A stretch of 13,094 nt of DNA from a virus. The DNA lies in UHGV virus genome UHGV-0365212; one strand, 5' to 3'. The first letter of the stretch is position 1. Each line of letters opens with the position of its first letter. The position numbers and the translations under genes are program-made. Of this stretch, positions 4,579 to 13,094 are shown piece after piece. Under the pieces are notes generated by a model. It did not search any database. It saw nothing but the letters and a program-made list of their open reading frames with translations, and was not told the origin of the DNA.

Positions 4579-4794
4579 ATGAAATCCATGGATAAGTTAA
4601 CAACGGGTGTCGCCTATGGCACCTCAGCAGGTAGTGCCGGGTACTGGTTTTTACAGCTGCTCGATAAAGTCACGCCCTCACAGTGGGCAGCAATAGGTGT
4701 GCTGGGTAGCCTGGTATTTGGCCTGCTGACGTACCTGACAAACCTTTATTTCAAGATTAAAGAAGATAAGCGCAAGGCTGCGAGAGGTGAATAA
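4579..4794 (+). CDS. S: class II holin, phage-21 S21-type pinholin with dual-start motif (71/68 aa)
   Basis: [26 protein letters not shown]...[13 protein letters not shown]; Met1-Lys2-Ser3-Met4 dual-start arrangement; two predicted TM segments; strong GAGGTGGGG RBS; stop overlaps endolysin start (TAATG). Confidence 0.9.
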
Positions 4795-5291
4795 TGCCTC
4801 CATCATTACGAAAAGCTGTTGCTGCTGCTATTGGTGGCGGGGCTATTGCTATAGCATCTGTGTTAATCACTGGCCCAAGTGGTAACGATGGTCTGGAAGG
4901 TGTGAGACATAATCCTTACAAAGACATAGTTGGTGTATGGACTGTATGTTACGGGCATACAGGAAAAGACATCATTCCCGGTAAAACGTATACCGAAGCA
5001 GAGTGCAAAGCCCTCCTGAATAAAGACCTTGCCACTGTCGCCAGACAAATTAACCGGTACATCAAAGTCGATATACCGGAAACAACGCGCGGCGCTCTTT
5101 ACTCGTTCGTCTACAACGTGGGTGCTGGCAATTTCAGAACATCGACGCTTCTTCGCAAAATAAACCAGGGTGATATTAAAGGCGCATGTGATCAGCTACG
5201 GCGCTGGACATACGCTGGCGGTAATCAATGGAAAGGACTGATGACTCGCCGTGAGATTGAGCGTGAAGTCTGTTTGTGGGGGAAACAATGA
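4794..5291 (+). CDS. R: SAR endolysin (T4-lysozyme-family muramidase with N-terminal signal-arrest-release segment), R21-like, 165 aa
   Basis: N-terminal weakly hydrophobic Gly/Ala-rich segment [20 protein letters not shown], then E-x8-D-x5-T catalytic spacing ([18 protein letters not shown]) as in T4 lysozyme; immediately follows the holin. Confidence 0.9.
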
Positions 5292-5746
5292 GCAGAGTAA
5301 CCGCGATTATCTCCGCTCTGGTTATCTGCATCATCGTCTGCCTGTCATTGGCTGTTAATCATTACCGTGATAACGCAATCGCCTACAAAGAGCAGCGCGA
5401 TAACAAGGCCAGTGAACTGGAGAAGGCGAACGCCACCATCGCTGACATGCGGAAGCGTCAACGTGATGTAGCAGAACTCGACGCAAGATACACAAAGGAG
5501 CTTGCTGATGCTAACGCGACTATCGAAAGTCTCCGTGCTGATGTTTCTGCTGGGCGTAAGCGCCTGCAAGTCGCCGCCACCTGTGCAAAGTCAACGACCG
5601 GAGCCAGCGGCATGGGCGATGGAGAAAGCCCAGGACTTACAGCAGATGCTGAACTCAATTATTACCGTCTCCGAAGTGGAATCGACAAGATAACCGCGCA
5701 GGTTAACTACCTGCAGGAATACATCAGGACGCAATGCCTGAAATAA
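5288..5746 (+). CDS. Rz: i-spanin Rz (inner-membrane spanin subunit), about 152 aa
   Basis: ATG at 5288 overlaps the endolysin stop (ATGA); [38 protein letters not shown]... with N-terminal TM helix and coiled-coil region; closely resembles recalled lambda Rz. The ORF-track start at 5276 is a GTG four codons upstream; I prefer the ATG. Confidence 0.88.
5508..5693 (+). CDS. Rz1: o-spanin Rz1 (outer-membrane lipoprotein) embedded in the +1 frame of Rz, 61 aa
   Basis: AAAGGAG RBS 7 nt upstream of ATG 5508; [20 protein letters not shown] with lipobox-like VSAC, then proline-rich [13 protein letters not shown]; wholly inside Rz in another frame as in lambdoid spanin pairs. Confidence 0.8.
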
Positions 5747-5778
5747 TTTTTTTGCAAATCACAAAGTCCATTTAATGA

Positions 5779-5802
5779 GCCTCGCGATGCGGGGCTTTTT
5801 TT
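5779..5802 (+). terminator. rho-independent terminator after the lysis cassette
   Basis: GCCTCGC-gat-GCGGGGC 7-bp stem (one G-U pair) followed by seven T; 33 nt downstream of Rz stop. Confidence 0.7.
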
Positions 5803-5951
5803 ACATCTGAATTTCACAGCGCATCTCACGCGCATATTACATCACCCGAGCCTTTCAGAAAGTTGAGCCTGAGAACTGCCGTATATGGTGGCGACCATCT
5901 CGGGGCGGCTTTTCTGTGAGACAGGCTCACTTTCTAAAAGGTAAAGACGCT

Positions 5952-6440
5952 ATGAACCAATTAGAAGAAAAGCTTCAAAGAATGATTTCCTTATACAAGG
6001 AAGATAACTGCCAAAAAGTTCCTGAAAACATCGCAGAGTTAATGGAATTGGCAAGTGAATTTTCTGGCATGCTTAAGTCGTCAGGTGTTCGGTCAGCGTT
6101 CTTTGTTGAAATGCTGATGCACGGCGGACTTATGGCAACAATGAGACGTGTAATGGAAGACCAGAGAAAAGAACCTCCTCAGGTATACGTTTTGTCATCG
6201 AAGAAAACTGGGCTAACCAAAATTGGGTATTCATCCAACATTCCACAACGCATCAAATCGCTTGGCAACTCTGGACCAGACTGCTTGAAGCTTGAGTGCC
6301 TGATCCCTGGTGGAAGAGAAACTGAAAACATGCTTCATCGCAAATTTGCCGCAAAGAGAAAGCACGGTGAATGGTTCGCCCTGTCCAAGGATGACATTGA
6401 GGGATTGAAATCTGTAGCGATTACTTCTGATGGCTATTAA
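5952..6440 (+). CDS. T5orf172/MUG113-domain (GIY-YIG-like fold) protein with an uncharacterised ~75-aa N-terminal region; moron between Rz and cos
   Basis: C-terminal half PQVYVLSSKKTGLTKIGYSSNIPQRIKSLGN...ETENMLHRKFAAKRKHGEWFALSKDDI fits the T5orf172 pattern (hydrophobic-YVL, KIGxT/S, R, E..LH..F, GEWF); ATG 5952 preferred over in-frame GTG 5916; AT-rich relative to flanking phage genes; has its own upstream gap after a terminator. Confidence 0.6.
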   Translation: MNQLEEKLQRMISLYKEDNCQKVPENIAELMELASEFSGMLKSSGVRSAFFVEMLMHGGLMATMRRVMEDQRKEPPQVYVLSSKKTGLTKIGYSSNIPQRIKSLGNSGPDCLKLECLIPGGRETENMLHRKFAAKRKHGEWFALSKDDIEGLKSVAITSDGY

Positions 6441-6754
6441 TGCTTGTTTAGAGCAATTTTCATAACAACTCTTCATTACAAAGCCCATCTACTGGTGGGC
6501 TTGATAATGAAACCGTGATTTACATCCCCACAATCCGGGTATGTAAAAGATAGTTCAGGCGAGAACGGATTTAACTAAATCTGTGCGCCACCAGTTAACG
6601 GCAGTACCACGAAACAACCCAAGCCAGTAAGTGGGGAAATAACACCGGCAGCCACTGAAAGATGAACCTCCTGCCTTATGGCAAAAAAGATTCTTTGTGG
6701 TGGCGGACTGATGGAAAGACATCCTAATTTCAGCCAAACATTGAAGGAGTTGTT

Positions 6755-6826
6755 ATGTCAGCAGAAGGTTTCAATAACCCATCAAAATTCCGGGATGAGT
6801 GGGATAGCAGCGTAAAGAGTAAGTGA
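6755..6826 (+). CDS. possible 23-aa small ORF with consensus Shine-Dalgarno (MSAEGFNNPSKFRDEWDSSVKSK)
   Basis: AAGGAG at 6744-6749, 5-nt spacer, ATG 6755; TGA stop at 6824-6826 overlaps a further tiny ATG; no homology recognised; could equally be a decayed gene remnant. Confidence 0.15.
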   Translation: MSAEGFNNPSKFRDEWDSSVKSK

Positions 6827-7118
6827 TGCCATCACAAAAGCCATTCCCTACAGAGTGGCTTTGATAATGGCTTATACCCTACACGGGATAACTTAACTGA
6901 TATCCCTTTTAAAGGATAAAGGTATTCAAGCCTGACACATCATGCGCTGTATCGTCGCCGTATTCCCGTATTAACAGAGACCGTAGCCCGACGGGGAACT
7001 CCTTCTGCGCGAGTGTGCGGGAATAATCAAAAACGATGCACACCGGGGTTACCGGGTACACATATTTCATCATGCCAGCGAGTCCGGTTCTGGCACGGAA
7101 GAAACCGGACGTTATGAT

Positions 7119-7529
7119 TTAGTGCGGAAATATTTGTGTAGTGTTCTGAATGTTCTCAGTAAAGAGTAATGAATTATCAAAGGTATAGTAATACCTTTTG
7201 TTTTCGTGGATATTTGTAATCCATCTGAAAACCCCTGCTGTAGCAAGATTTTTCCTGTATTCGTAAAATGATAACTCTCCTGATTTGAATCCTTTTAATG
7301 TGGCTTCTATAAGGCATTTATTTTTTGAAAATCTTACATTTACAACCTTACCCTGTCCTTTTATTAAAACCGTATTATCGTTTTCAAGAACAAGATGAAT
7401 ATTCTCTGTGGCTAAATAGTAAATGTAATGTGAGACATTGTGACGTTTTAGTTCAGAATAAAACCAGTGATAGTTTAAATTATTTCGCACTTTATCGAAT
7501 ATTTGTTTAAAAATGGCAACCTGAGCCAT
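7119..7529 (-). CDS. DUF1398-like small protein (YbcV / lambda right-arm orf family), 136 aa; AT-rich moron
   Basis: Start assigned to the second in-frame ATG (7529-7527) because GGAAGG lies 7 nt upstream; product [55 protein letters not shown]...; position between the lysis cassette and cos on the minus strand matches ybcV in DLP12 (from memory); roughly one-third G+C by eye. Confidence 0.55.
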
Positions 7530-7533
7530 TGTA

Positions 7534-7559
7534 GTACCTTCCATGTGATATGAAGGTAC
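7534..7559 (-). promoter_or_regulatory. perfect 8-bp inverted repeat (GTACCTTC / GAAGGTAC, 10-nt spacer) overlapping the RBS and first ATG of the DUF1398 gene; possible translational-control hairpin or operator
   Basis: Read directly from the sequence at 7534-7541 and 7552-7559; in the minus-strand mRNA the GGAAGG Shine-Dalgarno would pair with the upstream arm. Confidence 0.35.
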
Positions 7560-7586
7560 CTAGTCTGCACGATTATCTAAATTGCT

Positions 7587-7820
7587 TCAATCTGGTCTGA
7601 CCTGCTTTCTGAGCAATTCAGTAATGTCACTCTTTTCTTTGTTTGCTTCAGGCGAAACTCTTTTTTCTGAGCACAGTCTTCGGCGGCAGGCTTCAATGAC
7701 CCAGGCTGAGAAATTCCCGGACCCTTTTTGATCAAGAGCGATGTTAATTTGTTCAATCATTTGGTTAGGAAAGCGGATGTTGCGGGTTGTTGTTCTGCGG
7801 GTTCTGTTCTTCGTTGACAT
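7587..7820 (-). CDS. small basic protein, YlcI / lambda orf-64-like (DUF3950-type), 77 aa
   Basis: MSTKNRTRRTTTRNIRFPNQMIEQINIALDQKGSGNFSAWVIEACRRRL... resembles the small ORF found just upstream of cos in lambda and DLP12 (ylcI), recalled from memory. Confidence 0.55.
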   Translation of the reverse strand: MSTKNRTRRTTTRNIRFPNQMIEQINIALDQKGSGNFSAWVIEACRRRLCSEKRVSPEANKEKSDITELLRKQVRPD

Positions 7821-8019
7821 GAGGTTGTCCCGTATTCAGTGTCGCTGATTTGTATTGTCTGAAGTTGTTTTTACGTTAAGTTGATGCAGATCAATTAATA
7901 TGATACCTGCGTCATAATTGATTATTTGACGTGGTTTGATGGCGTAGATGCACGTTGTGACATGCAGATGATAATTATTATCATTTTGCGGGTCCTTTCC
8001 GGCGATCCGACAGGTTACG

Positions 8020-8208
8020 GGGCGGCGACCTCGCGGGTTTTCGCTATTTATGAAAATTTTCCGGTTTAAGGTGTTTCCGTTCTTCTTCGTCGTAACTTAA
8101 TGTTTTTATTTAAAATACCCCCTGAAAAGAAAGGAAACGACAGGTGCTGAAAACGGGCTTTTTGGCCTCTGTCGTTTCCTTTCTCTGTTTTTGTCCGTGG
8201 AATGAACA
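8020..8208 (+). other. cos: lambda cohesive-end site: cosN (GGGCGGCGACCT at 8020-8031) followed by the cosB region up to the Nu1 start
   Basis: Sequence ...GACAGGTTACG|GGGCGGCGACCTCGCGGGTTTTCGCTATTTATGAAAATTTTCCGGTTTAAGG... matches the lambda right-end/left-end junction as I recall it, with only scattered substitutions through to the ATG of Nu1. Confidence 0.85.
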
Positions 8209-11145
8209 ATGGAAGTCAACAAAAAGCAGCTGGCTGACATTTTCGGTGCGAGTATCCGTACCATTCAGAACTGGCAGGAGGCTCAGATTGCGTCCATCAG
8301 CCAGAGTGTGGCGCGTTTCTCCTCTGCATCCGGCGTGGAGGTGGACAAGGTCGCTGAAGCCTTCGGGAAGCTGACCACAGAGGGGAATACCAATATCTCC
8401 GGTGTCACGGTGGTGTTCCGGGCCGGTGAGCAGGAGCAGACACCGCCGGAGGGATTTGAATCCTCTGGCTCCGAGACGGTGCTGGGTACGGAAGTGAAAT
8501 ACGACACGCCGATCACCCGGACCATCACGTCGGCAAACATTGACCGTCTGCGTTTTACTTTCGGCGTGCAGGCACTGGTGGAAACCACCTCAAAGGGGGA
8601 CAGGAATCCATCGGAAGTCCGCCTGCTGGTTCAGATACAACGTAACGGTGGCTGGGTGACGGAAAAAGACATCACCATTAAGGGCAAAACCACCTCACAG
8701 TATCTGGCCTCGGTTGTGGTGGATAACCTGCCGCCGCGCCCGTTTAATATCCGGATGCGCAGGATGACGCCGGACAGCACCACAGACCAGCTGCAGAACA
8801 AAACGCTCTGGTCGTCATACACCGAAATTATCGATGTGAAACAGTGCTACCCGAACACGGCACTGGTCGGCGTGCAGGTGGACTCGGAGCAGTTCGGCAG
8901 CCAGCAGGTGAGCCGTAATTATCATCTGCGCGGGCGTATTCTGCAGGTGCCGTCGAATTATAACCCGCAGACGCGGCAATACAGCGGTATCTGGGACGGA
9001 ACGTTTAAACCGGCATACAGCAACAACATGGCCTGGTGTCTGTGGGATATGCTGACCCATCCGCGCTACGGCATGGGGAAACGTCTTGGTGCAGCGGATG
9101 TGGATAAATGGGCGCTGTATGTCATCGGCCAGTACTGCGACCAGTCAGTGCCGGACGGCTTTGGCGGCACGGAACCGCGTATCACCTGTAATGCGTACCT
9201 GACCACACAGCGCAAGGCGTGGGATGTGCTCAGTGATTTCTGCTCGGCGATGCGCTGTATGCCGGTATGGAACGGGCAGACGCTGACGTTCGTGCAGGAC
9301 CGGCCGTCGGATAAGGTGTGGACCTATAACCGCAGTAATGTGGTGATGCCGGATGATGGCGCGCCGTTCCGCTACAGTTTCAGCGCCCTGAAGGACCGCC
9401 ATAATGCCGTTGAGGTGAACTGGATTGACCCGAACAACGGCTGGGAGACGGCGACAGAGCTTGTTGAAGATACGCAGGCCATTGCCCGTTACGGTCGTAA
9501 TGTCACGAAGATGGATGCCTTTGGTTGTACCAGTCGGGGGCAGGCACACCGCGCCGGGCTGTGGCTGATTAAAACGGAACTGCTGGAAACGCAGACCGTG
9601 GACTTCAGCGTGGGTGCTGAAGGGCTTCGCCATGTACCGGGCGATGTCATTGAAATTTGCGATGATGACTATGCCGGTATCAGCATCGGCGGGCGCGTGC
9701 TGGCGGTGAACAGCCAGACCCGGACGCTGACGCTCGACCGTGAAATCACGCTGCCATCTTCCGGCACCACGCTGATAAGCCTGGTTGACGGGCAGGGGAG
9801 TCCGGTCAGCGTGGAGGTCCAGTCCGTCACCGACGGCGTGAAGGTGAAAGTGAGCCGTGTTCCTGACGGCGTTGCAGAATACAGCGTGTGGGGGCTGAAG
9901 CTGCCGACGCTGCGCCAGCGCCTGTTCCGCTGCGTGAGTATCCGTGAGAACGATGACGGCACGTATGCCATCACCGCCGTGCAGCACCTGACTGCCGAAG
10001 TCACCGCAGACAGCGGGGAGTATCAGGTACTGGCCCGCTGGGACACGCCGAAGGTGGTGAAGGGCGTGAGCTTTATGCTTCGCCTGACCGTGGCCGCGGA
10101 TGAAGGCATTGAGCGGCTGGTCAGCACGGCCCGGACGGCGGAAACCACATACCGCTTCACGCAACTGGCGCTGGGGAACTACAGGCTGACAGTCCGGGCA
10201 GTAAATGCCCGGGGACAGCAGGGAGACCCGGCGTCGGTATCGTTCCGGATTGCCGCCCCGGCAGCGCCGTCGCGGATTGAGCTGACACCGGGCTATTTTC
10301 AGATAACCGCCACGCCGCATCTTGCGGTTTATGATCCGACGGTACAGTTTGAGTTCTGGTTCTCGGAAAAGCGGATTGCGGATATCAGGCAGGTTGAAAC
10401 CACAGCCCGCTATCTTGGTACGGCGCTGTACTGGATAGCCGCCAGTATCAATATCAAACCGGGCCATGATTATTACTTTTATATCCGCAGTGTGAACACC
10501 GTTGGCAAATCGGCATTCGTGGAGGCCGTCGGTCGGGCGAGCGATGATGCGGAAGGTTACCTGGATTTTTTCAAAGGCAAGATATTTTCCCTGACATCAG
10601 ACGGAAAGCTGACCGCTAAAAATGCGGATATCAGTGGCAGTGTGAATGCGAACTCAGGGACGCTCAACAATGTCACGATTAATGAGAACTGTCAGATTAA
10701 GGGGAAACTGTCAGCCAACCAGATTGAAGGTGATATTGTCAAAACGGTCAGCAAGTCTTTCCCCCGCACGAACAGTTATGCCAGTGGCACCATCACGGTA
10801 AGAATCAGTGATGATCAGAAATTTGACCGGCAGGTCATGATACCGCCAGTGTTATTCCGCGGTGGTAAGCATGAGAATTTCAACAGTAATAACCAACAGT
10901 CATACTGGTATTCAACCTGCCGGTTAAGAGTGACCCGCAATGGTCAGGAGATTTTTAATCAGTCCACGACGGATGCTCAGGGCGTATTTTCCTCCGTTAT
11001 AGATATGCCTGCCGGACAGGGGACGCTGACACTGACATTCACCGTATCTTCATCAGGAGCGAATAACTGGACACCAACAACCAGTATCAGCGATCTGCTG
11101 GTTGTGGTGATGAAAAAATCCACAGCAGGTATCAGTATCAGCTGA
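8209..11145 (+). CDS. J: in-frame fusion ORF (978 aa): Nu1 residues 1-24, then a ~33-aa segment resembling tape-measure protein H, then tail-tip/host-specificity protein J from about residue 56 to the end; deletion remnant rather than an intact structural gene
   Basis: N-terminus [24 protein letters not shown] equals recalled lambda Nu1; [33 protein letters not shown] matches a motif I recall from lambda gpH; from [26 protein letters not shown] onward the protein tracks lambda J for about 800 residues, with a divergent C-terminal ~230 aa; junctions at about nt 8280 and 8379. Confidence 0.8.
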
Positions 11146-11875: not shown

Positions 11876-13094
11876 ATGGCAGTAAAGATTTCAGGTGTAC
11901 TGAAAGACGGCACAGGAAAACCGGTACAGAACTGCACAATCCAGCTGAAAGCAAAACGTAACAGTACCACGGTGGTGGTAAACACGCTGGCCTCAGAAAA
12001 TCCGGATGAAGCCGGGCGTTACAGCATGGACGTTGAGTACGGTCAGTACAGCGTTATTCTGTTGGTGGAAGGATTCCCGCCGTCACATGCCGGGACCATC
12101 ACCGTGTATGAAGATTCTCAACCCGGTACGCTGAATGATTTTCTCGGTGCCATGACGGAGGATGATGCCCGTCCGGAGGCTCTGCGCCGTTTTGAACTGA
12201 TGGTGGAAGAGGTGGTGCGTAACGCGTCCGCGGTGGCACAGAACACGGCAGCCGCGAAGAAGCCAGCCGGCGATGCCGGCACATCTGCCCGTGAGGCGGC
12301 AACCCATGCGACTGATGCTGCAGGCTCAGCACGCGCAGCCAGCACGTCAGCAGGACAGGCCGCGTCGTCGGCTCAGTCAGCGTCTTCCAGCGCAGGAACG
12401 GCATCAACAAAGGCCACTGAAGCGGAAAAAAGTGCTGCCGCTGCAGAGTCCTCAAAAAGCGCGGCGGCCACCAGTGCCGGTGCGGCGAAAAAGTCAGAAA
12501 CGAATGCGGCAGCGTCACAACAATCAGCAGCCACTTCTGCATCCACCGCGACCACGAAAGCGTCAGAAGCTGCCACCTCAGCCCGGGATGCGGCGGCCTC
12601 AAAAGAGGCAGCGAAATCATCAGAAACGAACGCATCCTCGAGCGCCAGTAGCGCAGCTTCCTCGGCAACGGCGGCAGGAAATTCCGCGAAGGCGGCAAAA
12701 ACGTCCGAGACGAACGCCAGGTCTTCTGAGACGGCAGCGGGACAGAGCGCCTCAGCTGCGGCAGGCTCAAAAACAGCGGCTGCGTCGTCTGCCAGTGCCG
12801 CGTCAACAAGTGCCGGGCAGGCCTCAGCCAGTGCCACCGCCGCCGGAAAATCGGCAGAAAGTGCCGCATCGTCTGCTTCAACAGCCACAACGAAGGCTGG
12901 CGAAGCCACTGAACAGGCCAGCGCAGCAGCGAGGTCAGCTTCCGCAGCGAAGACATCCGAAACGAACGCGAAAGCGTCGGAAACCAGCGCAGAATCCTCA
13001 AAAACGGCTGCCGCATCGTCCGCCAGTTCGGCGGCGTCATCGGCCTCATCGGCGTCTGCTTCAAAAGATGAGGCGACCAGACAGGCATCAGCAG
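11876..13094 (+). CDS. stf: side tail fibre protein Stf, 5' portion (continues past the window end); contains a long Ala/Ser/Thr-rich low-complexity repeat region
   Basis: ATG 11876; MAVKISGVLKDGTGKPVQNCTIQLKAKRNSTTVVVNTLASENPDEAGRYSMDVEYGQYSVILLVEGFPPSHAGTITVYEDSQPGTLNDF... matches recalled lambda Stf N-terminus; open to position 13094 with no stop; missing from the ORF track because it is truncated. Confidence 0.85.
   Translation, partial: MAVKISGVLKDGTGKPVQNCTIQLKAKRNSTTVVVNTLASENPDEAGRYSMDVEYGQYSVILLVEGFPPSHAGTITVYEDSQPGTLNDFLGAMTEDDARPEALRRFELMVEEVVRNASAVAQNTAAAKKPAGDAGTSAREAATHATDAAGSARAASTSAGQAASSAQSASSSAGTASTKATEAEKSAAAAESSKSAAATSAGAAKKSETNAAASQQSAATSASTATTKASEAATSARDAAASKEAAKSSETNASSSASSAASSATAAGNSAKAAKTSETNARSSETAAGQSASAAAGSKTAAASSASAASTSAGQASASATAAGKSAESAASSASTATTKAGEATEQASAAARSASAAKTSETNAKASETSAESSKTAAASSASSAASSASSASASKDEATRQASA

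What the first reader, a model, noticed from the sequence alone, without database searches (positions are those of the whole stretch)
6441..7118. About 680 bp of apparent non-coding DNA with small ORFs, an imperfect direct repeat and several hairpins
No ORF of 60 aa or more lies between the T5orf172 gene and the DUF1398 gene, yet the segment is structured. (a) A 23-codon ORF (6755-6826) has a consensus AAGGAG RBS, and its TGA overlaps another ATG; reading through the TGA would extend the frame by about 33 codons. (b) A GC-rich 54-codon minus-strand ORF (7073-6909, MMKYVYPVTPVCIVFDYSRTLAQKEFPVGLRSLLIREYGDDTAHDVSGLNTFIL) sits immediately downstream of the DUF1398 gene, behind a perfect 8-bp hairpin (GTCCGGTT-13nt-AACCGGAC, 7085-7113). 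(c) An imperfect ~20-nt direct repeat, CTACTGGTGGGCTTGATAATG (6490-6510) versus CTACAGAGTGGCTTTGATAATG (6850-6871), brackets the central part. (d) A hairpin plus T4 (GGGATA-10nt-TATCCC-TTTT) lies at 6885-6910. The base composition also shifts within the segment. This could be a decayed moron, a small-protein or sRNA locus, or the scar of an insertion.
Basis: seen in the sequence. Interest (0 to 1): 0.5.

Follow-up and report, generated by a model that had tools for sequence, protein, structure and literature searches.

The report
Non-coding linker patchwork in a prophage
This 680-bp stretch is not a hidden gene but a patchwork of short non-coding modules, shared with hundreds of lambda-like and P22-like phages, whose conserved hairpins sit at the points where accessory genes are swapped in and out; it is an ordinary feature of these phages, now mapped in detail.

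Summary
They are not one decayed gene. The window is a heavily deleted DLP12-like E. coli prophage, and 6441-7118 lies in the accessory-gene ("moron") zone between the lysis genes and the packaging genes.

It is a chain of five modules, each shared at about 85-100% identity with other phages but in different combinations.
- The "direct repeat" is two copies of one stem-loop family (hp1 6474-6509, hp2 6830-6869). Its 12 pairs show strong covariation.
- These copies bracket an optional cassette: block B (6584-6728) plus a cargo slot that holds at least five alternative plus-strand cargo types, or none, in other phages. Here the slot holds only a 23-codon ORF.
- Phages without B carry a single hairpin. 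In one group it is the hybrid that a crossover between the two copies would leave.
- The GC-rich right part (6943-7050) is phage lambda's bor-DUF1398 spacer.
- The 54-codon ORF there shows no sign of coding: no codon-position bias, frameshifts, and in-frame stops in relatives.
- The 8-bp hairpin (really 7082-7110) is conserved with compensatory changes.

No Rfam family matches. What the hairpins do is inferred, not shown. Interest is low to moderate.

The parts
6474..6509 (+). hp1, stem-loop type I. Outer stem CATTA (6474-6478) with TAATG (6505-6509). Inner stem AAGCCCA (6481-6487) with TGGGCTT (6496-6502). Loop of 8 nt.
   Evidence: Seen in sequence. Inverted repeat I2. Family covariation over 45 distinct variants: 96.7% of cells paired, 6 of 12 pairs changed on both sides, 0 of 500 shuffles reach the observed values for cells paired, cells changed on both sides and covariation score, slid controls 29-51%.
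6510..6583 (.). Tail of module A, plus a 61-bp segment (6523-6583) that is present in Sf6 and in the window but absent from HK544 and Chlobot. The segment is flanked by short GATTTA repeats.
   Evidence: Local blastn joints and alignment A1.
6584..6728 (+). Block B (core 6598-6723), a non-coding module found in P22, HK022, HK620, Sf6, epsilon34, phage L, Stx phages and others. It always lies downstream of a Rha/KilA-N/T5orf172-type gene or of hp1, and upstream of the cargo slot.
   Evidence: Found in 165 phage records and in 1123 of 5426 complete E. coli genomes, with no gene annotated over it in the 30 sampled rows apart from the 3' end of a Rha-family gene. Few variable sites among 106 contexts, though these were retrieved through an exact 31-mer. 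No ORF is conserved: the ATG at 6678 is lost and a stop appears in the 21-aa frame in 6 variants, and the 6597 indel changes the minus-strand frames. Only a sub-threshold Rfam hit: Proteo-phage-1, 19.8 bits against 42, E 0.49.
6729..6829 (+). Segment C, the cargo occupying the slot in this window. It holds GAAGGAG (6743-6749) and a 23-codon ORF (6755-6826). This is a rare cargo type.
   Evidence: Among 50,697 phage records it occurs only in HK544 and Emek. It is one of the cargo classes found between B and hp2. Both substitutions in Emek are synonymous. A change in the ribosome-binding site occurs in 2 loci. No significant family match: DUF2740 at E 0.075.
6830..6869 (+). hp2, stem-loop type II. 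Outer stem CATCA (6830-6834) with TAATG (6865-6869), including one C-A mismatch. Inner stem AAAGCCA (6837-6843) with TGGCTTT (6856-6862). Loop of 12 nt. This is the right copy of the direct repeat.
   Evidence: (I1). Annotated as a 'terminator' in the phage Ayreon record. In other phages it directly follows a canonical terminator.
6870..6920 (+). Module D: GGCTTATACCC, then hp3 (GGGATA 6885-6890 with TATCCC 6901-6906) followed by T4 (6907-6910). In P22-like phages it ends about 12 nt before the ribosome-binding site of the first head-region gene (hkbM / Sf6 gene 67).
   Evidence: Shared by Sf6, HK544, the Stx2 phage, Kati, Ayreon, PhiR49_1 and Chlobot. An Stx2 variant, TATCCT, keeps the pair as G-U on the plus strand only. 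It does not reach the terminator scan's threshold.
6943..7050 (+). E core, a GC-rich conserved island homologous to phage lambda about 46,868-46,975 (between bor and the DUF1398 gene lambdap78) and to the K-12 DLP12 borD-ybcV spacer. Predicted plus-strand long imperfect hairpin: 6943-6945 with 7038-7040, 6951-6955 with 7033-7037, 6961-6971 with 7015-7025, and an apical 6987-6989 with 6994-6996.
   Evidence: Lambda and K-12 homology. It is kept next to at least 3 left-flank and 4 right-flank types. 99.3% of cells are paired, 7 pairs vary while staying paired, and one pair is compensated in the lambda/K-12 type. Consensus folding energy is -29.4 on the plus strand and -15.7 on the minus strand. 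It also occurs without a DUF1398 gene, in the Stx2 phage and in Ayreon.
6909..7073 (-). The 54-codon ORF from the finding, judged not to be a protein-coding gene.
   Evidence: Flat distribution of variable sites by codon position: 15/12/17 in the core, against 33/18/59 for DUF1398 and 2/4/15 for the ylcI-like gene. A 1-nt indel breaks the frame in K-12 and lambda. The N-terminal part is not conserved and carries in-frame stops in several flank types. Only 61 short hypothetical proteins of varying length turn up among 5.8 billion. No Pfam or PHROG family.
7082..7110 (.). hpE, an 8-bp stem-loop (GTCCGGTT 7082-7089 with AACCGGAC 7103-7110) ending 8 nt from the DUF1398 stop codon. It is a conserved junction hairpin; the strand on which it acts is not resolved.
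   Evidence: Compensatory variants CCGGT/ACCGG, CCTGT/ACAGG and CCGGC/GCCGG. It is present in Qin-type ydfO loci that lack the E core, and in Ayreon, which lacks DUF1398. 85.2% of cells paired, 3 pairs changed on both sides, 0 of 500 shuffles reach the observed cells paired and covariation score.

Best explanation
Window 6441-7118 is non-coding linker DNA in the accessory-gene zone that lambdoid and P22-like phages carry between the lysis cassette and the packaging genes. It is a chain of separately inherited modules:

hp1, then block B, then a cargo slot (here a 100-bp insert with a 23-codon ORF), then hp2 with module D, then the E core, then hpE.

**Shown**
- Each module recurs in many phages next to different neighbours.
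- The two repeat copies are members of one stem-loop family that is maintained by compensatory change.
- B plus the cargo slot is an optional unit bracketed by these hairpins.
- B-less phages with a type I hairpin carry exactly the hybrid that a crossover between hp1 and hp2 would leave.
- The right part is lambda's own bor-DUF1398 spacer.
- The 54-codon ORF carries no coding signal.

**Inferred mechanism**
- The hairpins and the E core act in the plus-strand (late-operon sense) RNA, as processing, 3'-end-protecting or weak termination structures that separate neighbouring expression units.
- Their conserved 12-40 bp sequences also supply the short homology at which phages exchange or lose accessory cassettes. 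This is the 'boundary sequence' idea for phage mosaicism.

In this particular prophage the elements are probably idle relics. The prophage has lost its head genes, most of its tail genes and much of its early region, and no antiterminator gene was identified upstream.
For: **Context.** The gene order is exo/bet/gam, porin, holin, lysozyme, Rz, T5orf172, [finding], DUF1398, ylcI-like, and an in-frame Nu1(1-29)::J fusion.

**Mosaic joints.** They fall at 6464-6474, 6522/6584, 6723-6728, 6827-6831, 6920, 6943 and 7050 against nine phages and K-12.

**hp family.** 96.7% of cells paired. 6 of 12 pairs are changed on both sides (56 cells). 0 of 500 shuffles reach the observed values for cells paired, cells changed on both sides and covariation score. 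Slid controls give 29-51%.

**Strand.** About 36 G-U cells are compatible only with the plus strand, against about 9 compatible only with the minus strand (my count). The E-core stems are 99.3% paired on the plus strand. 55 of those cells are G-U, so at most about 92% could pair on the minus strand. Consensus folding energy is -29.4 against -15.7.

**Cargo slot.** The distance from the end of B to D falls into discrete classes of 43, 149, 287-289, 397-398, 424, 434-458 and 702 bp. These correspond to:
- no cargo
- the 23-codon ORF
- a 61-62-aa gene
- an int-alpA RNA leader plus a 72-aa DUF551 gene or an 80-aa gene
- the Sf6 gene-66 family (PF13876)
- a tandem of two of these

All cargo is on the plus strand.

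**Hairpin type against presence of B.** Type I next to D never has B (11 of 11 contexts). Type III next to D has B in 65 of 66. Type II occurs both ways.

**hpE.** Covariation supports it.

**Not coding.**

**No known RNA family.**

**Literature.**
- Short conserved boundary sequences as sites of homologous exchange: PMC3029335, citing Susskind-Botstein and Clark et al.
- Morons in late operons: PMC2629481, PMC4104026.
- Late genes of a P22-like prophage are read as one polycistronic transcript: PMC7067206.
Against: - No transcript, processing or termination data were available, so the RNA-level role is inferred from wobble asymmetry and covariation only.
- The covariation rests on a few inherited hairpin types (three main ones), so there are fewer independent events than cells.
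- The shuffle control does not correct for relatedness.
- Single-sequence folding is no more stable than shuffled sequence.
- hp1 and hp2 lack a U-tract, and in many phages they sit directly after a canonical terminator. Termination is therefore not obviously their job.
- Identity of 92-98% is common for recently exchanged lambdoid DNA, and my B set was retrieved with an exact 31-mer. The near-invariance of B is therefore weak evidence for selection.
- Block B has no assigned function at all.
- The strand of hpE is unresolved.
Confidence: 0.6

Rival explanations
1. Neutral relics only. The modules are leftovers of repeated illegitimate and homologous recombination. They look conserved because lambdoid DNA is exchanged recently and often. 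The hairpins are former terminators with no present role.
For: - This prophage is heavily deleted.
- Identity of the shared modules (92-98%) is within the usual range for lambdoid mosaics.
- Folding z-scores are unremarkable.
- Block B shows no covariation and no function.
- In phage L and in P22, module D is truncated right after the hairpin, so D is dispensable.
Against: - The hp stems keep pairing through double substitutions in both the inner and the outer stem across three sequence types, and hpE does the same. Neutral decay would break pairs.
- The E core is retained next to many different flanks while those flanks turn over, and it is better conserved than the 3' end of the adjacent gene.
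- The wobble asymmetry points to one strand.
Confidence: 0.2
2. A small-gene or small-RNA locus. Either the 23-codon ORF (6755-6826) is a translated micro-protein cargo, or block B or the E core is released as an independent regulatory RNA.
For: - There is a strong GAAGGAG 5 nt upstream of the ATG.
- Both substitutions seen in Emek are synonymous.
- The slot it occupies holds genuine small genes in other phages.
- Prophage late regions are known to carry short sRNAs (PMC4104026) and many uncharacterised ncRNAs (PMC7067206).
- B (126-145 nt) is of sRNA size and is bracketed by hairpins.
Against: - Only two informative substitutions exist, and two loci carry a G-to-A change in the ribosome-binding site.
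- Segment C occurs in only two of 50,697 phage records, and there is no significant family match.
- No sigma-70-like promoter or intrinsic terminator flanks B or the E core on the plus strand.
- No Rfam family reaches threshold.
- The candidate short ORFs inside B lose their start or gain stops in variants.
Confidence: 0.12
3. A site-specific mobile cassette. The unit hp1-B-cargo-hp2 moves by a dedicated recombinase that recognises the folded hairpin, in the manner of an integron attC site, and the direct repeat is its duplicated target.
For: - An optional unit is bracketed by about 36-bp direct repeats that are themselves hairpins.
- Many alternative cargos lie between conserved hairpins.
- The hairpin sequence is kept while the cargo changes.
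Against: - No integrase or transposase is linked to the unit in any locus examined.
- Across about 270 loci, the search used (pattern GAYAATG plus a stem and an upstream ACARA motif) found the hairpin only at this one genomic position, apart from a few spurious matches.
- The joints are not at a fixed nucleotide. The left edge of B varies among 6584, 6589 and 6598, and the right edge between 6723 and 6728.
- The hairpin lacks the attC R/L box pattern. This comparison rests on my own knowledge, not on a tool test.
- Ordinary homologous or microhomology recombination explains the hybrids.
Confidence: 0.05

Closest known systems
Moron insertion zones of lambdoid late operons (lambda bor and lom; the P22 'ant moron'; the PR'-proximal slot carrying stx and anti-sRNAs)
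   Same: This is a stretch inside or beside the late operon where unrelated accessory genes replace one another between phages. Some carry their own terminator. The window sits where lambda and DLP12 carry bor, and the slot after B holds at least five different cargo types (PMC2629481, PMC4104026).
   Different: The cargo here is reduced to a 23-codon ORF, and no promoter was detected. What stands out is not the cargo but the conserved non-coding scaffold around it (hp, B, D, E core). I found no published description of this scaffold with the searches I ran.
Conserved 'boundary' or linker sequences between phage modules (Susskind-Botstein modular theory; the bsq features annotated in Sf6 and described for HK620)
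   Same: These are short sequences conserved between phages at the junctions of non-homologous modules, proposed to be crossover points. Here the hybrid hairpin in B-less phages is what such a crossover would produce (PMC3029335).
   Different: The annotated Sf6 boundary sequence in this region (bsq7) lies inside Rz, not here. The elements here are also structured hairpins with compensatory change, which implies a function beyond supplying homology.
Intercistronic stem-loops that process or stabilise polycistronic phage and bacterial mRNAs (T7 RNase III sites, the lambda sib site, REP elements). This comparison rests on my own knowledge.
   Same: They are imperfect stem-loops with internal loops, lying between genes of one long transcript, conserved in structure, and lacking a U-tract.
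   Different: No cleavage or stabilisation was tested. hp has only 12 pairs, which is short for an RNase III substrate. It bears no sequence resemblance to REP or to the T7 sites.
Rfam Proteo-phage-1 (RF03044) and int-alpA (RF02996) RNA motifs
   Same: Block B shares the 3' string AACACCGGCAGCC with the Proteo-phage-1 consensus. It also shares a CACCG(G/C)CAGCCACTGAA string with the int-alpA leader found in some cargos of the very same slot.
   Different: B scores 19.8 bits against a gathering score of 42 and lacks both hairpins of the Proteo-phage-1 model. int-alpA does not hit B at E <= 10. B is not a member of either family.

Membership tests
Intrinsic (Rho-independent) terminator | A G+C-rich stem-loop followed immediately by a U-tract | tested here: not met
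   The scan of 5600-8300 reports no site at hp1, hp2, hp3 or hpE. hp1 and hp2 are followed by TTGATAATG or TTTGATAATG, and hp3 by only four T. The canonical terminator of the region is at 5777-5797, after Rz. In other phages a canonical terminator sits directly upstream of hp2.
Conserved structured RNA or DNA element (general criterion) | Base pairs maintained through compensatory substitutions across homologues | tested here: met
   hp: 6 of 12 pairs changed on both sides, 96.7% paired, 0 of 500 shuffles reach the observed cells paired and covariation score. hpE: 3 of 8 pairs, 85.2% paired. E core: 1 pair changed on both sides and 7 on one side, 99.3% paired. Caveats: there are few independent lineages, and the E-core structure was derived from the same alignment.
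Protein-coding small gene (the 54-codon ORF 7073-6909) | Reading frame and start codon conserved in homologues | tested here: not met
   A 1-nt indel gives a premature stop in K-12 and lambda. Several flank types carry in-frame stops upstream of the conserved core, with no alternative ATG.
Protein-coding small gene (the 54-codon ORF 7073-6909) | Excess of third-position variation | tested here: not met
   15/12/17 in the E core. The controls in the same loci give 33/18/59 (DUF1398) and 2/4/15 (ylcI-like).
Protein-coding small gene (the 23-codon ORF 6755-6826) | Ribosome-binding site, conserved frame, synonymous bias | tested here: inconclusive
   GAAGGAG with 5-nt spacing. Two of two substitutions in Emek are synonymous. 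A G-to-A change in the ribosome-binding site occurs in 2 loci. There is too little variation to decide.
Known Rfam RNA families (including the prophage sRNAs AgvB, AsxR, Esr41, STnc100, IsrK) | Covariance-model score at or above the family's gathering score | tested here: not met
   Nothing falls in 6441-7118 at E <= 1 over the whole window. With lax filters only mir-458 (22 bits against 59) and Proteo-phage-1 (19.8 against 42) appear.
Moron (independent accessory expression unit) | Its own promoter, a gene and a terminator, inserted relative to related phages | tested here: inconclusive
   Insertion relative to relatives is shown. Other cargos have a gene and a canonical terminator. In the window no promoter-like site was found, and the 'gene' is a 23-codon ORF.
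Boundary or linker sequence of mosaic phages | A short sequence conserved at the junction of modules that are otherwise non-homologous between phages, with recombinant arrangements observed | tested here: met
   hp is flanked on the left by T5orf172, KilA-N, Rha or gene-65 types, and on the right by B or D. Hybrid type I-D junctions occur only in B-less phages, 11 of 11.
Type I toxin-antitoxin (hydrophobic short ORF plus overlapping antisense RNA) | A conserved short hydrophobic ORF with a start codon and ribosome-binding site | tested here: not met
   The minus-strand GTG ORF in B (6655-6575, MAAGVISPLTGLGCFVVLPLTGGAQI) lies 11 nt from AGGAGG. It is truncated to 19 aa by the 6597 indel in 60 of 106 variants, and it is rich in Gly and Pro. 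The more hydrophobic frame has no start codon.
Integron-like cassette (attC hairpin) | A linked tyrosine recombinase and conserved R/L boxes, with cassettes at more than one site | tested here: not met
   No recombinase lies next to the unit in any annotated relative. The pattern search found the hairpin at this one position only. The R/L box comparison rests on my own knowledge.

The most novel reading that the evidence does not exclude
The hp stem-loops, block B, module D and the E core could together form an undescribed set of structured RNA 'punctuation' in the late transcripts of lambdoid and P22-like phages. In this reading they direct processing or insulate neighbouring units, and they double as dedicated exchange joints that make the lysis-to-packaging interval a plug-in site for accessory or anti-defence genes. 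That would be an RNA-structured counterpart of a cassette array, working without a recombinase.
Probability: 0.15. Interest if true: 0.55.

Novelty: new member of a known kind. Interest (0 to 1): 0.3.

Why it matters
For annotation:
- The 54-codon ORF should not be called as a gene, although phage records and protein databases carry it under varying lengths.
- Likewise, 'orf118' of ST64T and phage L and 'orf25' of P22 lie across these linkers and are probably over-calls.

For phage biology:
- The map shows that the interval between the lysis and packaging genes is organised as cargo slots separated by a small set of conserved hairpins.
- One of these modules lies in phage lambda itself and is unannotated in the lambda record examined.
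- If the hairpins prove to be processing or insulation signals, they would be useful parts for engineering accessory genes into temperate phages, and useful markers for finding moron cargo, including candidate anti-defence genes.

As it stands, this is a well-resolved but ordinary piece of phage mosaic.

Tried and rejected
- **Rfam.** I scanned the whole window at E <= 1, the segment alone at E <= 10, and 15 related loci at gathering score. No family covers the segment.
- **Pfam and PHROGs on all short ORFs.** Nothing significant; DUF2740 at E 0.075 for the 23-aa ORF.
- **Large protein database search with the 54-aa ORF.** It returned only short Escherichia/Shigella hypotheticals, and no longer parent protein. 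A remnant of a larger gene is therefore unlikely.
- **B as the N-terminus of a real gene.** The epsilon34 record notes similarity to ST64T orf118. In phage L that ORF starts at the ATG inside B and reads through the hairpin into the hkbM-like gene, which has its own ribosome-binding site and ATG. I rejected it as an over-extended call.
- **Type I toxin in B.** Rejected.
- **Promoter in B, hp or D.** No consensus site. By eye, the TTGATA and GATAAT hexamers in the hairpin tail have no partner hexamer at the right spacing.
- **Chi site.** Read by eye: ACTGGTGG in the hp1 loop and in B (minus strand) is 7 of 8 and is not Chi.
- **Known prophage sRNAs (AgvB, AsxR, Pas, STnc100).** These map upstream of the holin, not here, and are in Rfam.
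- **PdhR site near ybcV.** It lies on the other side of the gene.
- **Deeper homologues through the DUF1398 protein in one-genome-per-species contigs.** This returned only Escherichia, Shigella and apparent lambda contamination, so it added little divergence.
- **Thermodynamic stability.** Uninformative.
- **Casjens-Hendrix lambda review.** Not held in the library.
Full report
**Setting.** The window is a DLP12-like lambdoid prophage of E. coli. The 951 bases around the finding are 100% identical in at least 25 complete genomes and are covered to 80% or more in 67 of 5,426. In one of these genomes the element sits beside tRNA-Arg and intD.

The gene order is as follows:
- exo, bet and gam on the minus strand
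- a porin gene
- holin (4579-4794), lysozyme (4794-5291) and Rz (5276-5746)
- a T5orf172/GIY-YIG-type gene (5916-6440)
- the finding
- a DUF1398 gene (7119-7544, minus strand)
- a ylcI-like DUF3950 gene (7587-7820, minus strand)
- a 978-aa ORF that fuses the first 29 residues of Nu1 to tail-tip protein J

The prophage has therefore lost its head genes and most of its tail genes. I did not identify a late-gene antiterminator upstream of the porin gene. The region under study lies where lambda and K-12 DLP12 carry bor.

**Checking the observation.** All four features are in the sequence.
- Two sets of coordinates are slightly off. The 8-bp hairpin is at 7082-7110, and the repeat copies are at 6489-6509 and 6848-6869.
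- One TTG-start ORF of exactly 60 aa lies at 6555-6737 on the minus strand.
- The composition shift is real: GC is 0.54-0.55 at 6950-7100 and 0.30-0.33 in the DUF1398 gene.
- Folding energies of single sequences are no better than shuffles, with z from -0.5 to -1.0. Any claim of structure therefore has to rest on comparison.

**The segment is a mosaic of separately shared modules.** Local blastn against nine annotated phages, K-12 and lambda gives sharp joints. About 200 further viral contigs, retrieved with two exact patterns, show the same picture.

| Module | Coordinates | Content and distribution |
|---|---|---|
| A | about 6464-6522 | Holds hp1 |
| indel | 6523-6583 | 61 bp; present in Sf6, absent from HK544 and Chlobot |
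| B | 6584-6728 (core 6598-6723) | In P22, HK022, HK620, Sf6, epsilon34, phage L, Stx phages; 165 phage records and 1,123 of 5,426 E. coli genomes. In the 30 sampled rows no gene is annotated over it, apart from the 3' end of a Rha-family gene |
| C | 6729-6829 | Among 50,697 phage records, only in HK544 and Emek |
| hp2 + D | 6830-6920 | In nearly all the relatives compared |
| E | 6921-7118 | Shared with Kati, PhiR49_1, Chlobot, Ayreon and part of an Stx2 phage. At about 82% identity from 6943 onwards it is shared with the K-12 borD-ybcV spacer and with lambda about 46,868-47,041, between bor and lambdap78, which is a DUF1398 gene |

**The direct repeat is a conserved stem-loop.** Each copy is a hairpin with two stems separated by a small internal loop. 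The outer stem is 5 bp (CATTA with TAATG). The inner stem is 7 bp.

Across the loci there are three sequence types:
- Type I: AAGCCCA with TGGGCTT
- Type II: AAAGCCA with TGGCTTT
- Type III: GAG(G/A)CCA with TGGTCTC, with outer stem ATTG with CAAT

There are also rarer variants, such as AAGCGTC with GGCGCTT.

On 45 distinct sequences, 96.7% of cells are paired and 6 of the 12 pairs are changed on both sides (56 cells). None of 500 shuffles reaches the observed values for cells paired, cells changed on both sides and covariation score. Slid registers give 29-51% pairing. The events behind these counts are few, because the types are inherited, but pairing is clearly maintained.

Wobble pairs compatible only with the plus strand outnumber those compatible only with the minus strand by about 36 cells to 9. 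This is my count. It modestly favours an RNA made in the late-operon direction.

These hairpins are not canonical terminators. They lack a U-tract and the scan does not report them. In Ayreon, Kati and several cargo classes, a canonical terminator lies immediately upstream of hp2.

**The repeat brackets an optional cassette.** PhiR49_1 has a single hairpin with a type I stem joined directly to module D, and this hairpin aligns to both window copies.

I counted hairpin type against the presence of B over all distinct contexts:
- A type I hairpin next to D never has B upstream (11 of 11).
- Type III next to D almost always has B (65 of 66).
- Type II occurs with B (38) and without it (20).

Both a never-inserted arrangement and the hybrid expected from a crossover between hp1 and hp2 therefore exist.

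Between the 3' end of B and D the spacing falls into discrete classes:
- 43 bp with no cargo (62 loci)
- 149 bp, the window type with segment C (21 loci)
- 287-289 bp, with a 61-62-aa gene
- 397-398 bp and 424 bp, with an Rfam int-alpA leader followed by a 72-aa DUF551 gene or an 80-aa gene
- 434-458 bp, with the Sf6 gene-66 family (PF13876)
- 702 bp, with a tandem of two cargos

All cargo is on the plus strand. Three classes end in a canonical terminator just before hp2.

A second slot lies upstream of hp1. It is filled by T5orf172 here, by KilA-N in HK544 and PhiR49_1, by a KilA-N- or Rha-like gene in viral contig L060, and by gene 65 in Sf6. Where hp1 is absent, as in P22 and the Stx2 phage, the Rha gene abuts B directly.

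A third slot lies between D and the E core. It is empty here, while lambda and K-12 carry bor to the left of the E core and lack D.

**Block B.**
- Its core is nearly invariant in my sample. However, the sample was drawn with an exact 31-mer, and identities of 92-98% are usual for lambdoid DNA, so this is weak evidence for selection.
- No reading frame is preserved. Six variants lose the ATG at 6678 and gain a stop in the 21-codon frame. A common 1-nt indel at 6597 alters the minus-strand frames. Variable sites fall 14/13/9 by codon position.
- 'orf118' of ST64T and phage L starts at the ATG inside B. It reaches 118 codons only by reading through the hairpin into the hkbM-like gene, which has its own ribosome-binding site and start codon.
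- B shares a 13-nt string with the 3' end of the Rfam Proteo-phage-1 consensus, but it scores 19.8 bits against 42 and lacks both model hairpins.
- Its function remains unexplained.

**The right part.**
- The 54-codon ORF fails every coding test that was possible. The frame is broken in K-12 and lambda. The N-terminal third differs completely between flank types, several of which carry in-frame stops. Variable sites are flat across codon positions (15/12/17), while the neighbouring genes show the expected third-position excess (33/18/59 and 2/4/15). A search of 5.8 billion proteins returns only 61 short hypotheticals of 34-79 aa from Escherichia and Shigella.
- What is conserved is a 108-bp island (6943-7050), kept next to several different left and right flanks.
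- On the plus strand this island can form a long imperfect hairpin. 99.3% of cells are paired. Seven pairs vary while staying paired, and one pair is compensated in the lambda/K-12 type. Because 55 of these cells are G-U, at most about 92% could pair on the minus strand. The consensus energy is -29.4 on the plus strand and -15.7 on the minus strand.
- The island also occurs without any DUF1398 gene, in the Stx2 phage and in Ayreon.
- The 8-bp hairpin next to the DUF1398 stop codon is conserved with compensatory changes. It is present in Qin-type ydfO loci that lack the island and in Ayreon, which lacks DUF1398. It is therefore another junction element. Its active strand is not resolved.

**The 23-codon ORF.** It has a strong ribosome-binding site. 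Both differences in Emek are synonymous. Against this, two loci carry a G-to-A change in the ribosome-binding site, the segment is rare, and there is no significant family match. It may be a real micro-protein cargo or an accident of a deletion. The data cannot decide.

**Interpretation.** The best-supported reading is that 6441-7118 is linker DNA of the lysis-to-packaging accessory zone.

The following points are shown:
- modular sharing of the segments
- covariation in the hairpins
- the cassette structure
- the hybrid junctions
- the identity of the right part with lambda's spacer
- the absence of a coding signal in the 54-codon ORF

The following points are inferred:
- The hairpins and the island act in the late-sense RNA, as processing, 3'-end-protecting or weak termination structures.
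- Their conserved sequences serve as crossover points for cassette exchange, as proposed for phage boundary sequences (PMC3029335).
- This fits what is known of morons in late operons (PMC2629481, PMC4104026) and of polycistronic late transcription in a P22-like prophage (PMC7067206).

In this deleted prophage the elements are probably idle. Three rivals remain possible at lower probability: pure neutral relics, a small-gene or sRNA locus, and a hairpin-directed mobile cassette.

**Verdict.** The finding is real but ordinary in kind: a well-resolved example of phage mosaic linkers and a moron slot. There are three modest new points. The stem-loop family shows solid covariation and is absent from Rfam. 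A widespread block remains unexplained. A conserved structured island lies in lambda itself. I rate interest at 0.3.

Noticed in passing
window 8209-11145 (+): A 978-aa ORF fuses Nu1 residues 1-29 in frame to tail-tip protein J domains. A single deletion removed all head genes and most tail genes. Together with exo/bet/gam lying next to a porin gene, this marks a heavily deleted prophage.
   Followed up: partly
L060 6828-6890; also L099 and L035 cargo: An Rfam int-alpA RNA (RF02996, 42 bits against a gathering score of 35.8) sits as a leader in front of small cargo genes (an 80-aa gene and a 72-aa DUF551 gene) in the slot between block B and hp2. This is far from any integrase or alpA gene. 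Its 3' tail resembles a string inside block B.
   Followed up: partly
L248-L273 (genome-contig hits): About 25 contigs from unrelated taxa (Kitasatospora, Brevibacillus, Flavobacterium, Cohnella, Shewanella and others), many about 3.5 kb or about 48.5 kb long, carry a DUF1398 allele that is uniformly 71-76% identical to the query. The two whose spacer I compared (L270, L273) match the window's E region at 82%, the same level as lambda. This looks like phage-lambda DNA contaminating genome assemblies.
   Followed up: partly
L279 1390-1746 (phage L / ST64T orf118); L278 1659-1736 (P22 orf25): Both annotated ORFs lie across the non-coding linkers. orf118 starts at the ATG inside block B and reads through the hairpin into the hkbM-like gene, which has its own ribosome-binding site and ATG near 1505. 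orf25 spans the type III hairpin. Both are probably over-calls.
   Followed up: partly
window 7119-7544 (-): PHROG phrog_413 labels DUF1398 proteins 'head protein', and several phage records copy this label. Yet the gene is a minus-strand moron next to bor in lambda and in K-12 (ybcV, ydfO). The label is doubtful.
   Followed up: no
window 6688-6667 (-), inside block B: A G-U-rich stem followed by a U-rich tail on the minus strand is reported as terminator-like by the scan. The same site is annotated as a minus-strand terminator in the phage L record. A common T/A polymorphism at 6672 breaks one of its pairs.
   Followed up: partly
window 8125-8187: A long, near-perfect inverted repeat lies just upstream of the Nu1 start, where cos would be expected. 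It gives a spurious sub-threshold mir-578 match.
   Followed up: no
L278 about 1737-2040 (P22, between the hairpin and orf80): By eye, an unannotated minus-strand ORF of roughly 90 codons, with a ribosome-binding site and a bidirectional-looking terminator (AAAAAAGCCGCTTACTTAGCGGCTT), occupies the slot after the hairpin in the P22 reference record.
   Followed up: no
window 12913-13075 (-): A weak, sub-threshold match to the Salmonella island sRNA family isrG (20 bits against 100, E 0.06) lies inside a 329-aa minus-strand ORF. It is probably chance.
   Followed up: no
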